From the NCBI GenBank assembly GCA_964610325.1, contig CAZSVO010000002.1, positions 204,475 through 268,474 of the forward strand: DNA of 64,000 nt, given 5' to 3'. Position 1 is the stretch's first letter; each line of letters starts with the position of its first letter. A model generated the notes under the pieces. It was not told the origin of the DNA and did no database searches. It saw nothing but the letters and a program-made list of their open reading frames with translations. Shown in pieces: positions 47,873 to 50,968 of the stretch. A program made the position numbers and the translations under genes. Source of the DNA: an uncultured Candidatus Izemoplasmatales bacterium. GTDB lineage: Bacteria > Bacillota_I > Bacilli_A > Izemoplasmatales > Hujiaoplasmataceae.

Positions 47873-48619
47873 TTACTTTTTACTTTGGATTTTATAAGCT
47901 GACTTTAGTATTAATGAAAGTGGCATAACCTTTAAAAGAATATATAGTATTTTCATTGAGAAACCAGGGATAACCAAGGCTTTTTTTCTTTTTATCCCCT
48001 TGATGATTTCATTAACACATTTGTCAACTTTTTGACCTTTCATTTTTTGGGTGGCATTTGCAACCTTTCCAAATTCTGTTTTTACAGGGCCTGGACAAAC
48101 GGTCATTACATTAATGGGTATCCCCTTCTTTTTCAACTCATATCTTAGTGCAGTGGAGTATGAATATACATAAGCTTTTGTTGCAGCATAACTAGCGAGT
48201 AGAGGTGTTGGGAGAAACGCGGCTAAACTACTGATGTTAATCAATTGTCCGTTTTTTATTTTCTTAATTGCATAAGCGCTTAAATAGTGTAGAGATTTAA
48301 TGTTTAGGTCAATCATAGATAATTCTCTATCTGTTGAAACCTCAAAAGAGTTACCTACTATTCCAAATCCTGCATTGTTGATAAATAAATCGATTTCATA
48401 TTGATCAAGTTTACTTGTTAGATCTTCCAAGTCAATCTGTTTCTCTAAGTCATAGGTATAAACTTCAATAGAAATCTGATACTGTTCGAGTTGTTTTTTA
48501 ATTTCTTCAAGACGGGTAGTACGCCTTGCAATCAAGACTAAATCATATTTGTTTTTTGCTAATTGTCTGGCTAATTCTTCGCCTATTCCTGATGAAGCAC
48601 CGGTAATCACTGCTAACAT
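47873..48619 (-). CDS. SDR-family oxidoreductase
   Basis: TGASSGIGEELA Rossmann motif. YxxxK (YAATKAYVYSY). Confidence 0.8.
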   Translation of the reverse strand: MLAVITGASSGIGEELARQLAKNKYDLVLIARRTTRLEEIKKQLEQYQISIEVYTYDLEKQIDLEDLTSKLDQYEIDLFINNAGFGIVGNSFEVSTDRELSMIDLNIKSLHYLSAYAIKKIKNGQLINISSLAAFLPTPLLASYAATKAYVYSYSTALRYELKKKGIPINVMTVCPGPVKTEFGKVANATQKMKGQKVDKCVNEIIKGIKRKKALVIPGFSMKILYILLKVMPLSLILKSAYKIQSKK

Positions 48620-48703
48620 TACTACCTCCTTGTTTATCTTAGTAAATTATATCATATTTTGATGGATTTGCTCTAATAAAAAAGAGAATTTGTTCTTGCT
48701 TTA

Positions 48704-48732
48704 AGGATAGATATTGACAACGCTTTCATATT
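48704..48732 (+). promoter_or_regulatory. Consensus sigma-A promoter driving the riboswitch leader
   Basis: TTGACA (48704-09), 17 nt, TATAAT (48727-32). Confidence 0.65.
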
Positions 48733-48754
48733 TAAGTATAATCTTAGTGAAATT

Positions 48755-48954
48755 GAATCGATACAGAGGAGCAAGATACTGGTATTAAGTCTTAGATTTT
48801 TGTAGTGGACGGACAAGGACTTAAGAAGGAGTGTTTTGCCGAAAGGGTTGATTAGTCTGTAAATCAAAACCTTGGTATTTAAACATACAGGATAAATACT
48901 GCCATTTAAATGGAGAGCTGTTATATTTTTGCAAAAAAATATAATGGCTTTTTT
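48755..48954 (+). ncRNA. Putative lysine riboswitch (L-box) with an intrinsic terminator expression platform, predicted ON-type
   Basis: L-box-like conserved blocks AGAGGAGC (48765-72), GCCGAAAGGG (48838-47), GGAGAGCUG (48912-20). Terminator 48917-48954 (gctgttatattttt-gcaa-aaaaatataatggc followed by TTTTTT). Its 5' arm overlaps the putative P1 3' strand. Precedent exists for L-boxes upstream of kamA lysine-catabolic operons. Confidence 0.45.
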
Positions 48955-49041
48955 AAATTATTTTAGGAGCTAGCTATACAAAAATCAAGTAAAAATGATA
49001 AATAATTAAAATTATGATATTTGAACATACTTAAAAAAGGA

Positions 49042-50488
49042 TTAAGAACCCTAAATTTCATATAATGGGTGATTAATTATAAGAGATCATTATAGAAATT
49101 ATCAGTTTTAAGAATTTTGTAAATAGAATGAACCATGTTTTTAGCTATAGCGAAAATAACGGTTGAATGATGTTTGTTTTCTTTACTCATCATCTTAAGA
49201 TATTTGCGTCTAAAATTTATTATCCTTGGTCTTTGGATTCACACAAGCAACCCTAGCGGCGCTATAAATGGCGGTACGTAAATACTTACTACCACGTTTA
49301 GAAATTCGAGTACGCTTACGTTTGTATTTTCCAGACTCATGGACGATGGGTTCAATACCGAAAAGAGATGTATATTTGTGTTTGTCAGGGAACCTACTAA
49401 TATCGCCAGTTTCACCTAGAATAGTCGCGCCATTAATAGGGCCGATACCTGGGACTGATGATATCTTTGGATAAAGAGTCATATGTTGAGAAATAAGTTT
49501 CTTTAGTTCCATATTTTGACCGCTGAAATGAATAATATTAGAAACACAAAACTTAATAAGATAAGCATTTAAGTTATTTGAATTTCCTATTGAGTTTTTC
49601 GCGATATGTTTTATAAGTTTGGCTTGTTCAATACGGTTTGAACGACTACGAATTCTTTGAGCTAAAGATTCAATATGAAGACCTTTATAATCACTTGGTA
49701 AAGGGAAATCATAAAGTAGATCTAAAGTCCATTTTGAAAATGGATTAAAGTGTTTAAGAAACTCGGGGAAGAACATTTGAAGTAATCTTTTAAGTTCGCC
49801 CTTAGCTTTAGTAAGGATTTGATTATTAGAATTATAGTCTCTAGATAATTGTTTTAACTCAAGTAAATGATATAATGGTGGTGTATAGGGATGGAGCCGA
49901 TTCAGGTTATGCATAAGGTGCCTACACACTGCTATAGCGTCAATTTTATCAGTCTTGGTCATGCGAGGTGACGCCGACTTACGACTGAGAGAAACTAACA
50001 TGGGGTTAGTGCAATATACAGTGTAGCCTTTGGATATCAGAAAATCTCGCAGATTATTATGATAGATACCTGTGGCCTCCATTCCTATACGAATATCGTT
50101 AACCGACTTCGTACAGGATTGAATAACTGTGTGAAGTTTTTTAAACCCCGAACGATTATTTTGGATAATAAAGTGATCATAAACGATTTCACCCAAATCA
50201 TTTATGATGATGATATCGTGTTTATCCATTGCGATATCAATGCCAATGAAAATCAAAATAAAAACCTCCTCGTTTGAATTATCCAAACGTCATGAAATCA
50301 CAAACAAATATAAATGTAACCTTGTAAATACACACTCAAGGTGTAACTAGCTAATTCACATTTATCATATAAGTTGGGTTGTACCCTCCCAAGCACACTC
50401 GAAGTGTAAGGAAAGAATGACACACTCCACAACGTTTGTAACTTCATTATAGGAGATTAAATAAATTATTTAAATACATTTTAAGAAC
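49042..50488 (-). mobile_element. IS110-family insertion sequence (about 1.45 kb); boundaries approximate
   Basis: IS110-type transposase. Long left-end non-coding region (about 200 nt) and short right end. The 8-mer TTAAGAAC occurs at both putative junctions (49042-49049 and 50481-50488). No terminal inverted repeats, as expected for IS110. Confidence 0.7.
49210..50286 (-). pseudogene. IS110-family transposase (DEDD N-terminal domain plus IS116/IS110/IS902 C-terminal domain); C-terminal ~40 aa out of frame (frameshift or sequencing error)
   Basis: N-terminal FIGIDIAMDKHD (DEDD motif 1). C-terminal VPGIGPINGATILGETGDISRF and KRGSKYLRTAIYSAA. The canonical tail (RRKYLKMMSKENKHHSTVIFAIAKNMVHSIYKILKTDNFY) continues in the +1 frame to 49095. 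The break is at a TTTT/AAAA run near 49210-49215. Confidence 0.75.
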
Positions 50489-50545
50489 AAAAAAAGAAAG
50501 GAGAAGTATAGTTAAATTAACTTAATTTAATTATACAAGGTTAAT

Positions 50546-50968
50546 ATGAAGAGTTTTACTATTGAAGAGATTAGTTTAGGAGATAATGCCAAAACAAGCA
50601 AAAGATTTGAAGAGGCGGATGTTTTGGACTTTGCAAGGATTTCAACGGATAATAATCCAGCACATATAGATAATGATTATGCATCAAAGACGATTTTTAA
50701 ACAACAAATCGTTCATGGAATGTTGGTTTCTTCGTTGTTTAGTGCTATTTTCGGGACGCAACTACCAGGACTTGGAACAATATATACCAAACAATCATTG
50801 AAGTTTACAAAACCGGTATATTTTGGAGATGAGATTACAGCAGAGGTGATAGTCAAAGATATCAACAAGGAAAGAAATCGAGTTGTTTTTGATTGCAAAG
50901 CATATAATCAATTAGGGGATATTGTTATTATTGGTGAAGCAGAACTGATGCCGCCTAGGAAGGAATAG
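50546..50968 (+). CDS. MaoC-like (R)-specific enoyl-CoA hydratase (hot-dog fold)
   Basis: Hydratase-2 motif ISTDNNPAHID followed by the catalytic His in IVHGML. Confidence 0.7.
   Translation: MKSFTIEEISLGDNAKTSKRFEEADVLDFARISTDNNPAHIDNDYASKTIFKQQIVHGMLVSSLFSAIFGTQLPGLGTIYTKQSLKFTKPVYFGDEITAEVIVKDINKERNRVVFDCKAYNQLGDIVIIGEAELMPPRKE

What the first reader, a model, noticed from the sequence alone, without database searches (positions are those of the whole stretch)
49042..50488. IS110-family element inserted between the riboswitch leader and the kal-kamA operon; structured left end with three ACACACTC...GTGTAA stem-loops
- **Position:** an IS of about 1.45 kb, with its transposase on the minus strand, lies 88 nt after the riboswitch terminator and 58 nt before the first operon gene. 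TTAAGAAC occurs at both junctions. The insertion physically uncouples the operon from its promoter and riboswitch. The operon must now be expressed by read-through or from an IS-borne outward promoter.
- **Left end (50290-50480):** this non-coding region contains three related units, ACACACTC-NAAG-GTGTAAC, at 50328, 50392 and 50420. Each can form a short hairpin. This is the location where IS110-group elements encode their guide 'bridge' RNA.
- **Transposase:** the C-terminal 40 codons are shifted into another frame at a homopolymer. This is either recent inactivation or a sequencing error.
Basis: partly seen in the sequence, partly recalled or inferred. Interest (0 to 1): 0.6.

Follow-up and report, generated by a model that had tools for sequence, protein, structure and literature searches.

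The report
Bridge-RNA insertion sequence in kal ribosome-binding site
A 1.57-kb IS110-type mobile element that carries its own guide ("bridge") RNA sits exactly inside the ribosome-binding site of the first lysine-fermentation gene, cutting the operon off from its lysine riboswitch; it is a decaying copy of a known kind of element and its limits are wider than first reported.

Summary
An IS110-group insertion sequence is present, but it is 1,570 bp long (body 48970-50537, flanked by the 2-nt core AG/CT at 48968-69 and 50538-39), not 49042-50488. The TTAAGAAC octamers lie inside the element and are not a target duplication.

IS-free orthologous loci read TTTTAGGAGG-N5-7-ATG after the riboswitch terminator. 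Removing the IS from the window restores TTTTAGG-AG-GTTAATATG. The IS therefore split the Shine-Dalgarno sequence of kal, 6 nt before its ATG.

The 281-nt left end encodes an IS621-like bridge RNA (about 50439-50284, minus strand). Its donor loop matches the element's own ends (TAGCTAG-CT / CT-TGTA). Its target-loop strands covary with the flanks of 27 and 20 independent insertions (permutation p=0.0006 and <5e-5).

The family targets translation starts (CAT-N-C-CT-CC), as IS900 does.

The window copy is damaged. An extra T (49212-49215) truncates the recombinase to 348 of 392 aa, and this is identical in five independent assemblies, so it is not a sequencing error. The RNA also carries two private changes at positions that are otherwise invariant or nearly so.

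This is a new member of a known kind. How the operon is now transcribed is unresolved.

The parts
48970..50537 (-). Body of the IS110-group insertion sequence (1,568 bp; 1,570 bp with one core copy). In recombinase orientation the left end starts TGTATAATTAAATT at 50537 and the right end finishes ...TATAGCTAG at 48970.
   Evidence: Homology to 18 other copies in other contexts ends here. Removing it restores the IS-free orthologous sequence. Coordinates were checked.
48968..48969 (.). Core dinucleotide AG (CT on the recombinase strand) at the right-end junction. Upstream host sequence is TTTTAGG.
50538..50539 (.). Second copy of the core AG (CT) at the left-end junction. It is followed by G-TTAAT-ATG of kal. 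The residual Shine-Dalgarno sequence is CAAGG.
49210..50256 (-). Truncated recombinase ORF of 348 aa. It has a TTG start, with the ribosome-binding site GAGGAGG at 50271-50265. The DEDD residues and the catalytic Ser (HESG) are retained.
   Evidence: Gene callers on identical contigs also give 348 aa.
49212..49215 (-). Frameshift site. TTTT on the minus strand replaces the TTT of intact copies and creates the stop TAG at 49212-49210.
   Evidence: Alignment to L011 and L012. The site is identical in L001-L004 and L009.
49077..49211 (-). Out-of-frame remnant of the last 44 codons plus the original TAA stop (RRKYLKMMSKENKHHSTVIFAIAKNMVHSIYKILKTDNFYNDLL*).
50284..50439 (-). Predicted bridge RNA of about 156 nt: a closing stem, the target-binding loop and the donor-binding loop.
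   Evidence: Alignment of 13 distinct copies. Consensus fold has 96% of cells paired and 4 compensatory pairs.
50409..50419 (-). Left target guide plus core, CATTCTTTC-CT (5' strand of the target-binding loop).
   Evidence: Hypervariable between copies. It covaries with the flank next to the left end: 27 sites, 14 guide types, p=0.0006.
50394..50408 (-). Central hairpin of the target-binding loop, TACAC-TTCGA-GTGTG.
   Evidence: ACAC/GUGU changes to ACUC/GAGU, a compensatory change, in 2 of the 13 aligned sequences.
50385..50393 (-). Right target guide, CTTGGG-AG-G (3' strand of the target-binding loop). It contains the GGAGG that pairs with the strand opposite the Shine-Dalgarno sequence.
   Evidence: It covaries with the flank next to the right end: 20 sites, 10 guide types, 0 of 20,000 permutations as good.
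50345..50353 (-). Left donor guide, TAGCTAG-TT. It has the same sense as the right-end terminus TAGCTAG-CT.
50330..50344 (-). Central hairpin of the donor-binding loop, ACAC-CTTGA-GTGT.
50320..50329 (-). Right donor guide, ATTTACA-AG-G. It is antisense to the left-end terminus CT-TGTA and is 13/14 identical to the same region of IS621 (GTATTTGCAAGGTT).
50446..50474 (-). Candidate internal promoter for the RNA, TTTAAA-17-TATAAT. The -10 box lies in an invariant block, CTCCTATAATGAA.
50530..50537 (-). Extended -10 box TGTATAAT at the tip of the left end. With TTGATT (48988-48983) in the right end it would form a TTGATT-17-TATAAT promoter only in the circular form.
   Evidence: Sequence. IS621 has the same layout in L030 (PMC11208160).
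48983..48988 (-). -35 box TTGATT in the right end. It is one half of the junction promoter.
50506..50536 (-). Left-end tip hairpin GTATAATTAAATTAA-G-TTAATTTAACTATAC, followed by a pyrimidine-rich tract.
   Evidence: z-scores -2.5 to -5.8 in 4 of 5 subfamilies, with different inner stems
49033..49051 (-). Terminator-like hairpin after the recombinase gene, GGGTTCTTAATCC + T6. It contains the right-hand TTAAGAAC octamer.
48714..48956 (+). Host leader now separated from the operon: promoter TTGACA-17-TATAAT (48714-48742), lysine riboswitch aptamer (48756-48928) and terminator hairpin plus T-run (48912-48956).
   Evidence: The leader is conserved in IS-free orthologues.

Best explanation
This is a 1,570-bp IS110-group insertion sequence from a family found in Candidatus Izemoplasmatales and related Mycoplasmatota. 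It moves by bridge-RNA-guided recombination.

**Proposed mechanism.**
- The 281-nt left end encodes a structured RNA of about 160 nt with two internal loops.
- The donor-binding loop pairs with the element's own joined ends, ...TATAGCTAG-CT-TGTATAAT...
- The target-binding loop pairs with a translation-initiation region. On the recombinase strand this reads CAT-N(4-9)-C-CT-CC-NNNN, which is the reverse of NNNNGG-AG-G-N-ATG.
- Recombination occurs at the shared CT core.

**What happened in this window.** The element recombined inside the Shine-Dalgarno sequence AGGAG^G of kal, the first gene of the lysine-fermentation operon. kal keeps a weaker CAAGG ribosome-binding site. The operon now lies 1.57 kb from its promoter, lysine riboswitch and terminator, and the recombinase gene points away from the operon.

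**State of this copy.** It is degenerate. A 1-nt insertion truncates the recombinase by 44 residues, removing the region that aligns to the end of the IS621 Tnp domain. The RNA has two private changes at positions that are otherwise invariant or nearly so. The copy is most likely immobile on its own, and it is present on every contig recovered that carries this kal allele.

**Shown versus inferred.**
- Shown: the limits, the insertion point, the family, the donor-guide matches, the guide-target covariation, and the reality of the frameshift.
- Inferred: that the RNA is expressed, that the recombinase is inactive, and how the operon is transcribed now. The candidates are read-through from the riboswitch promoter across the IS, or a -10-only outward promoter TATAGT at 50507-50512.
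For: **Limits and insertion point.**
- L011 is 98.5% identical over window 48963-50540 and has unrelated flanks. Seventeen further copies end at the same positions.
- IS-free syntenic loci L031, L033 and L035 have the same gene order (mfd, SDR, leader, kal, CoA-transferase genes). Their leaders end ...GGCTTTTTTT..TTTTAGGAGG-N5-7-ATG. The window with 48970-50539 removed reads ...GGCTTTTTTAAATTATTTTAGGAGGTTAATATG.
- In L023 the right end runs straight into CT-TGTATAATTAATTT. These are the two ends abutted at the core.

**Family.**
- PF01548 + PF02371 and NF033542.
- The closest solved structures are the IS621 and ISCro4 recombinases (E about 2e-13).
- The IGID, EATG, KTDKIDA and HESG motifs align to D11, E60, D102/D105 and S241 of IS621 (PMC11208158).

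**RNA.**
- The left end is 88% identical on average per column across copies whose recombinases are only 59-99% identical.
- 96% of cells pair in the consensus fold, and 4 pairs show compensatory changes.
- The donor guides match the termini.
- The two hypervariable strands covary with the flanks: left guide p=0.0006 (27 sites, 14 guide types); right guide 0 of 20,000 permutations as good, and 19 of 20 sites match their own guide better than the average of other guides.
- Examples: AAAAAG goes with CTTTT flanks; TTATGG goes with CCATAA.
- The junction promoter has the same geometry as in IS621.

**Target class.**
- In 10 of 11 left-end flanks examined a long ORF starts 4-9 nt away.
- Gene callers place a divergent gene start at the left-end tip in 14 of the 27 further loci.

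**Frameshift.**
- The intact length is 389-392 aa for the large majority of the 117 relatives listed.
- The extra T is identical in ENA, JGI and Logan assemblies from five samples.
Against: - No transcript data exist, so RNA expression, the RNA ends and recombinase binding are untested.
- No Rfam family matches the region.
- Sequence similarity to the IS621 RNA is limited to a 14-nt stretch that is not significant on its own (37 of 500 shuffles score as high).
- Single-sequence folding z-scores are modest (-2.4 and -1.4). High conservation leaves few covarying pairs.
- The window copy's own guides fit its own site poorly on the left half: 4 of 8 positions, no better than other guides. The right half fits 4 of 6, or 5 of 6 with a G-T wobble. 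This particular insertion was therefore off-target or half-matched, or guided in trans by a sibling, or the guide drifted afterwards.
- The predicted overall fold uses a long-range closing stem, whereas IS621 has a 5' stem-loop.
Confidence: 0.85

Rival explanations
1. The IS is 1.45 kb (49042-50488) and is bounded by an 8-bp target-site duplication TTAAGAAC. It inserted into neutral leader sequence 88 nt after the terminator and 58 nt before kal.
For: The octamer does occur at both positions.
Against: - Homology with copies in other contexts runs 79 nt and 49 nt further out, and it includes both octamers.
- The octamers are absent from the 79%-identical L012.
- IS-free orthologues have no sequence corresponding to 48970-49041 or 50489-50537.
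- IS110-group elements do not make 8-bp duplications (PMC11208160; PMC8141618).
Confidence: 0.02
2. The conserved left end is not an RNA guide. It is a DNA-level feature: the recombinase promoter and 5' UTR plus repeated protein-binding sites (the ACACACTC...GTGTAA units). Target choice would then be made by the protein.
For: - The units are repeated, and direct-repeat binding sites occur in other transposons.
- There is no expression evidence here.
- Fold z-scores are modest.
Against: - Protein-only recognition does not predict that the two short hypervariable strands flanking a unit track the flanking host sequence, one in the same sense and the other antisense.
- It does not predict that the equivalent strands around the other unit match the element's own two termini in the same sense/antisense pattern.
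- That pattern is the one demonstrated for IS621 (PMC11208160, PMC11208158).
Confidence: 0.05
3. The frameshift is not a lesion. It is either a sequencing or assembly error, or a programmed +1 frameshift (AAA-UUU-UAG-A) that still yields full-length recombinase.
For: - The site is a homopolymer.
- A +1 slip of tRNA-Phe from UUU to UUU next to the in-frame stop would restore exactly the wild-type sequence ...DNKF-RRKYL.... The geometry resembles the prfB site. This is inference only.
Against: - The extra T is identical in five assemblies made from different samples and by different pipelines.
- The large majority of the 117 relatives listed encode 389-392 aa in one frame, so frameshifting is not a family trait.
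- The same copy has further private changes in the RNA at 50376/77 and 50298, which fits decay.
Confidence: 0.08
4. The decayed copy has been co-opted. Its left end now supplies the promoter and ribosome-binding site of the lysine-fermentation operon, making expression independent of the lysine riboswitch.
For: - The IS is present on every recovered contig that carries this kal allele and reaches into the leader. The downstream operon ORFs remain intact and of orthologous length.
- Every subfamily examined has a -10-like hexamer facing outward 25-50 nt from the left-end tip (TATAGT, TATATT or TATCTT).
- The left end leaves AAGG at Shine-Dalgarno distance from the ATG.
Against: - The outward hexamer is the mirror of the junction -10 box within a palindrome, so its conservation needs no separate function.
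- No -35 box is conserved, and the consensus scan finds no outward promoter there.
- Read-through from the riboswitch promoter is equally possible.
- No expression data exist.
Confidence: 0.25

Closest known systems
IS621 (E. coli), the IS110-group bridge recombinase with its bridge RNA (Durrant et al. 2024, PMC11208160; Hiraizumi et al. 2024, PMC11208158)
   Same: - The recombinase has a DEDD RuvC-like domain plus a Tnp domain with a catalytic Ser.
- The guide RNA is encoded in the left end, directly upstream of the recombinase gene.
- The RNA has two internal loops. In each, the 5' strand has the same sense as the left half-site plus core, and the 3' strand is antisense to core plus the right half-site.
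- The core is CT.
- The left-end termini are nearly identical (CT-TGTATAAT here, CT-TGTATTAT in IS621), as are the right donor guides (GTATTTACAAGGTT here, GTATTTGCAAGGTT in IS621).
- The -35 box in the right end and the -10 box in the left end are 17 nt apart across the junction.
   Different: - The recombinases are only about 30% identical over the alignable parts, and this one is 392 aa against 326 aa.
- The left end is about 100 nt longer. It has a tip hairpin and a second, internal TATAAT directly upstream of the RNA, so the RNA may be made from integrated copies.
- The predicted fold has a long-range closing stem instead of a 5' stem-loop.
- The right target guide is longer (6 variable nt plus core, against 4).
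- The target is a translation-initiation region, not a REP element.
IS900 / IS901 / IS902 group (Mycobacterium avium complex, IS110 family)
   Same: Insertion is orientation-specific and occurs at translation-initiation signals. The IS900 target motif is CATGNNNNNNTCTCCTT (PMC8141618; Doran et al. 1997, as cited there). The motif here is CAT-N4-9-C-CT-CC(T/A/C). Both are a start codon plus a Shine-Dalgarno sequence read on the opposite strand.
   Different: - The hosts are unrelated (high-GC Actinobacteria against low-GC Mycoplasmatota).
- There is no long antisense 'hed'-type ORF here. The + strand of the IS has only short ORFs.
- Recombination here falls within the Shine-Dalgarno sequence (AGGAG^G).
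- No sequence-level relationship to IS900 was tested.
IS1111 group and seekRNA elements (Siddiquee et al. 2024, PMC11187229)
   Same: A DEDD recombinase and RNA-guided site selection.
   Different: IS1111 elements have subterminal inverted repeats and carry the non-coding region downstream of the gene. This element has no terminal inverted repeats, and its long non-coding region is upstream (281 nt against 107 nt).

Membership tests
IS110 family, IS110 group | N-terminal DEDD (RuvC-like) domain | tested here: met
   PF01548, E 1.5e-29. The IGID, EATG and KTDKIDA motifs align to D11, E60 and D102/D105 of IS621.
IS110 family, IS110 group | C-terminal Tnp domain with the catalytic serine | tested here: met
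   PF02371, E 5e-24. HESG aligns to YES241G of IS621. In the window copy the domain is cut short: NF033542 positions 1-301 of 343, against 2-340 in the intact L011.
IS110 family, IS110 group | No terminal inverted repeats, no multi-bp target duplication, and only a short shared core at both junctions | tested here: met
   The ends are TGTATAAT... and ...TATAGCTAG, with no inverted repeat. Only the AG/CT core is repeated.
IS110 family, IS110 group | The long non-coding region lies upstream of the recombinase gene (it lies downstream in the IS1111 group) | tested here: met
   Left end 281 nt, right end 107 nt.
Bridge RNA (IS621 type) | A donor-binding loop whose 5' strand matches the right-end terminus plus core in the same sense, and whose 3' strand is antisense to core plus the left-end terminus | tested here: met
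   TAGCTAG-TT against TAGCTAG-CT (8 of 9, the mismatch allowing a U-G wobble). ACA-AG against CT-TGT. The test for covariation with the donor was not informative, because the donor ends are almost invariant in the sample.
Bridge RNA (IS621 type) | Target-binding-loop strands that covary with the flanking target | tested here: met
   Left guide: 27 sites, 14 guide types, p=0.0006. Right guide: 20 sites, 10 guide types, 0 of 20,000 permutations as good.
Bridge RNA (IS621 type) | A core dinucleotide shared by donor and target | tested here: met
   CT in the empty-site reconstruction and in the abutted right-end/left-end junction of L023.
Bridge RNA (IS621 type) | [quoted passage not shown] | tested here: met
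   At sequence level only: TTGATT-17-(TG)TATAAT once the ends are joined. Activity was not testable.
Bridge RNA (IS621 type) | The RNA is expressed, binds the recombinase and is required for recombination | not testable with these tools
   No transcriptome or biochemical data are available.
Bridge RNA (IS621 type) | A match to a curated RNA family model | tested here: not met
   No Rfam 15 family reaches threshold on the left end. The best E-values are 3.7 and 5.3, to unrelated families. This most likely means the library has no model that reaches this family, so it does not count against function.
IS900-like elements that target ribosome-binding sites | Orientation-specific insertion at a Shine-Dalgarno sequence plus start codon | tested here: met
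   In 10 of 11 left-end flanks a long ORF starts 4-9 nt away. Called divergent genes abut the left end in 14 of the 27 further loci. The IS900 motif is taken from PMC8141618.
IS1111 group | Subterminal inverted repeats and a non-coding region downstream of the gene | tested here: not met
   Neither feature is present.

The most novel reading that the evidence does not exclude
Two linked readings remain open.

1. This Izemoplasmatales clade may be a natural class of bridge-RNA elements whose target loop is hard-wired to translation starts. GGAGG is fixed in the right guide and CAT...C-CT in the left guide. Only the spacer and the upstream bases are programmable. This would give the mechanistic reason for the long-known ribosome-binding-site targeting of IS900-type elements.

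2. The decayed copy in this window may have been co-opted. Its left end would then supply the promoter and the Shine-Dalgarno sequence of the lysine-fermentation operon, freeing the operon from what looks like a lysine-ON riboswitch.

The probability given below is for the co-option reading.
Probability: 0.25. Interest if true: 0.55.

Novelty: new member of a known kind. Interest (0 to 1): 0.38.

Why it matters
- **Annotation.** The result corrects the element's limits and shows that the insertion destroyed a strong Shine-Dalgarno sequence (AGGAGG became CAAGG). It also cut a riboswitch-controlled catabolic operon off from its control region, which matters for anyone inferring lysine fermentation or its regulation from this genome.
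- **Bridge recombinases.** It adds a well-sampled natural family: 14 guide types and more than 25 independent insertions in metagenomes. The guides read translation-initiation regions. This links the IS621 bridge-RNA mechanism to the older observation that IS900 targets translation signals.
- **Natural tolerance.** The family shows half-matched insertions, a longer right target guide, and a possible promoter that works in the integrated state.
- **Overall.** None of this is a new kind of system.

Tried and rejected
- **Plasmid collection search.** A megablast of the IS found nothing.
- **Other copies in the window.** A BLAST of the IS against the whole window found no other copy or fragment.
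- **Rfam.** Neither the gathering threshold nor the permissive E-value threshold gave a family for the left end.
- **Strain-level IS-free allele.** All 17 contigs with the identical Kal protein either carry the IS or break inside it. The nearest IS-free loci are orthologues with 74-78% Kal identity.
- **L027.** Its right flank shares 13 nt (CCTAAAATAATTT) with the window's, so I checked whether it was the same locus. It is not; no riboswitch follows.
- **TAA as the repeated core.** I first considered TAA from the window junctions alone. I rejected it because L011 and the other copies do not repeat it. CT fits all junctions and the empty site.
- **Direct alignment with the IS621 RNA.** It gave only a 14-nt match, which is not significant on its own.
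- **Promoter/terminator scan.** It finds no outward promoter at the left-end tip. It also finds no terminators at all, and it misses the obvious AT-rich riboswitch terminator, so it is insensitive in this genome.
- **Donor-guide covariation.** This could not be tested. The one copy with a different left donor guide (L024, GAGATGG) runs off its contig before the right end.
Full report
**1. What is in the window**

The window has 33% G+C. Its relatives are metagenome-assembled genomes of Candidatus Izemoplasmatales.

On the + strand there is a consensus promoter, TTGACA-17-TATAAT, at 48714-48742. It is followed by a lysine riboswitch aptamer at 48756-48928 (RF00168, 70 bits). Next comes a strong AT-rich hairpin with a T-run at 48912-48956 (z = -4.7).

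It is followed by CoA-transferase subunits, a thioesterase, BKACE, KDD and a radical-SAM lysine aminomutase.

Between the leader and kal, on the minus strand, lies an ORF with the DEDD_Tnp_IS110 and Transposase_20 domains. NCBIfam names it 'IS110 family RNA-guided transposase'. The basic observation is therefore right.

**2. The limits are wrong and the octamer is not a duplication**

Searches of species-representative genomes and of metagenomes with the recombinase returned 19 related loci.

- The closest full copy, L011, is 98.5% identical in DNA and sits in an unrelated context. It aligns to window 48963-50540.
- All other copies lose similarity at the same two places.
- In recombinase orientation the element starts (CT)TGTATAATTAAATT and ends ...TATAGCTAG(CT).
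- Both TTAAGAAC octamers (49042 and 50481) are inside the element. They are present in L011 and absent in the 79%-identical L012.
- The right-hand octamer is part of a terminator-like hairpin, GGGTTCTTAATCC + T6, just after the recombinase gene.

**3. The empty site**

No strain-level IS-free allele was found. All 17 contigs encoding the identical Kal protein either carry the IS, 100% identical over 48601-50600, or break inside it.

Orthologous loci with 74-78% Kal identity (L031, L033, L035) keep the same gene order: mfd, SDR, leader, kal, CoA-transferase genes. Their intergenic region is about 355-365 nt, against 1,926 nt in the window.

Their leaders align with the window's through the promoter, aptamer and terminator. 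They then read TTTTAGGAGG-N5-7-ATG in L031 and L033; L035 reads AAGGAGGAG at that point. Deleting window 48970-50539 gives GGCTTTTTTAAATTATTTTAGG-AG-GTTAATATG.

The element therefore recombined at an AG core (CT on its own strand) inside the Shine-Dalgarno sequence AGGAG^G of kal. The core is present at both junctions (48968-69 and 50538-39). The element is 1,570 bp with one core copy. kal retains only CAAGG, with 5 nt between that motif and the ATG.

In L023 the right end runs directly into CT-TGTATAATTAATTT. These are the two ends abutted at the core, and they independently support these termini.

**4. The left end encodes a bridge RNA**

The left-end sequence is far more conserved than the protein. 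Average per-column identity is 88% across 13 distinct copies whose recombinases are 59-99% identical. Conservation runs from an invariant CTCCTATAATGAA block to the recombinase ribosome-binding site.

The consensus fold has a 13-bp closing stem and two stem/internal-loop/hairpin modules. 96% of cells are paired, against 27-51% when partners are slid. Four pairs show compensatory changes.

Donor module:
- The 5' loop strand is TAGCTAG-TT (50353-50345). It has the same sense as the right-end terminus TAGCTAG-CT.
- The 3' loop strand is ATTTACA-AG-G (50329-50320). It is antisense to the left-end terminus CT-TGTA.

Target module:
- The equivalent strands are the only hypervariable stretches of the RNA: CATTCTTTC-CT (50419-50409) and CTTGGG-AG-G (50393-50385).
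- I added 27 loci found through four recombinase clusters and compared guides with flanks.
- Left guide: 27 distinct sites and 14 guide types. Own-guide matches average 4.78 of 8, against 3.71 for other guides. Guide-type permutation gives p=0.0006.
- Right guide: 20 sites and 10 guide types. Own-guide matches average 4.45 of 6, against 3.05. No permutation out of 20,000 did as well. 19 of 20 sites favour their own guide.
- Clear cases: guide AAAAAG goes with flanks CTTTT(G/A/C); guide TTATGG goes with flank CCATAA; guide TTGACAC-CT goes with flank TTGACAC-CT.

This sense/antisense, core-overlapping logic is the one established for IS621 (PMC11208160; PMC11208158).

I retrieved a real IS621 copy from E. 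coli (L030). Three features correspond:
- The left-end terminus: CT-TGTATTAT in IS621, CT-TGTATAAT here.
- The right donor guide: GTATTTGCAAGGTT in IS621, GTATTTACAAGGTT here (13 of 14).
- The geometry of the split promoter: TTGCAG-17-TATTAT in IS621, TTGATT-17-TATAAT here, with the core inside the spacer.

The units at 50328 and 50392 are the central hairpins of the donor and target loops. The unit at 50420 is the 5' strands of the closing stem and of the target-loop stem.

**5. The target class**

The constant parts of the guides are CAT...C-CT on the left and GG-AG-G on the right. Together they spell, on the opposite strand, a Shine-Dalgarno sequence plus a start codon.

In 10 of 11 left-end flanks a long ORF begins 4-9 nt from the junction and points away from the element. 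Gene callers place a divergent gene start at the left-end tip in 14 of the 27 additional loci.

This is the same target class reported for IS900, CATGNNNNNNTCTCCTT (PMC8141618, which cites Doran et al. [quoted passage not shown]

The window copy's own guides fit its own site well on the right half: CCTAAA against an ideal CCCAAG, 5 of 6 with a G-T wobble. They fit poorly on the left half, 4 of 8. The nearly identical L011 behaves the same way. Possible explanations are a half-matched insertion (compare bioRxiv 10.64898/2026.08.31.748434), guidance in trans by a sibling element, or later drift of the guide.

**6. State of this copy**

- Intact relatives encode 389-392 aa in one frame.
- The window has TTTT where L011 and L012 have TTT. 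This gives AAA-TTT-TAG and a 348-aa product.
- The missing 44 residues align to IS621 residues from about 272 onwards, within its Tnp domain of residues 189-326 (domain limits from PMC11208158). The catalytic residues are all upstream of the break.
- The extra T is identical in contigs from two ENA, two JGI and one Logan sample. It is therefore a real allele and not a random error.
- The RNA of this copy has two private changes. An A that is present in all 12 other sequences is deleted between 50377 and 50376. A G>A change at 50298 breaks a pair of the donor-module stem that is intact in all but one of the other copies.
- I infer that the copy cannot move by itself. Other copies exist in the same population, because assemblies break inside the IS and one contig carries 5 mismatches. 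Mobilisation in trans therefore cannot be excluded.
- A +1 slip at UUU-U next to the UAG would restore exactly the wild-type protein. This is only a sequence-based possibility.

**7. Consequence for the operon**

Physically, the promoter, riboswitch and terminator are now 1.57 kb from kal, and the strong Shine-Dalgarno sequence is weakened. The operon ORFs are intact and of orthologous length.

How the operon is transcribed is unresolved.
- Read-through from 48742 across the IS, antisense to the recombinase gene, is possible.
- An outward -10-like TATAGT (50507-50512) exists in every subfamily examined. It is the mirror image of the junction -10 box inside a conserved tip hairpin. The consensus scan reports no outward promoter there.

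**8. Verdict**

This is an ordinary, though well-resolved, member of the IS110 / bridge-RNA kind that targets ribosome-binding sites as IS900 does. It differs from IS621 in four respects: a longer left end with a possible promoter that works in the integrated state, a longer right target guide, a predicted closing stem, and the target class. The coordinates, the 'duplication' and the hairpin description do not.

Noticed in passing
window 48756-48956 (+): The 3' strand of the lysine riboswitch P1 helix (CUGUUA, 48918-48923) lies inside the 5' arm of the terminator hairpin (48912-48956). Ligand-stabilised P1 should therefore prevent termination, which would make this a lysine-ON switch. That makes sense for a lysine-fermentation operon. 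The same layout is conserved in the IS-free orthologues L031, L033 and L035.
   Followed up: partly
L023:3769-3800: The right end of this copy is followed directly by CT plus 14 nt identical to the left-end start (TGTATAATTAATTT), and then by unrelated sequence. This is a donor-like junction. It could be a remnant of a tandem or circular junction, or an insertion into a solo left-end fragment.
   Followed up: partly
window 50506-50536: A tip hairpin of the left end (outer stem GTATA/TATAC) is conserved in 4 of 5 subfamilies with different inner stems. On the recombinase strand it is followed by a pyrimidine-rich tract. It may insulate the element from incoming transcription, and it places TATAAT on one strand and TATAGT on the other.
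   Followed up: partly
window 48960-48988 (-): The -35 box TTGATT in the right end, combined with host flank, forms TTGATT-17-TAAAAT. This is a hybrid promoter-like site reading out of the IS, antisense to the riboswitch leader.
   Followed up: no
L005-L008, L010 (contigs with the identical kal): Several assemblies break inside the IS. L007 carries 5 mismatches in its IS part. This indicates additional, slightly different copies in the same population.
   Followed up: no
window 14245 (+) and 38406 (-): These two sites match the family's preferred right half-site plus a start codon (TTTAGGAGGTATATG and ATTAGGAGGAATAGTTATG). Both are unoccupied.
   Followed up: no
L024:350-541: This copy has a different left donor guide (GAGATGG instead of TAGCTAG), plus changes in the adjacent stem. 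Its right end lies beyond the contig end, so the predicted matching terminus could not be checked.
   Followed up: no
window 49210-49218 (-): The frameshift context is AAA-UUU-UAG-A. A +1 slip on UUU_U would give exactly the wild-type C-terminus.
   Followed up: no
window 49213-50253 (-), residues 204-331: There is a weak NCBIfam match, well below the cut-off, to the TIGR-Tas RNA-guided endonuclease family (E 5.8e-6, 26 bits against a cut-off of 100).
   Followed up: no
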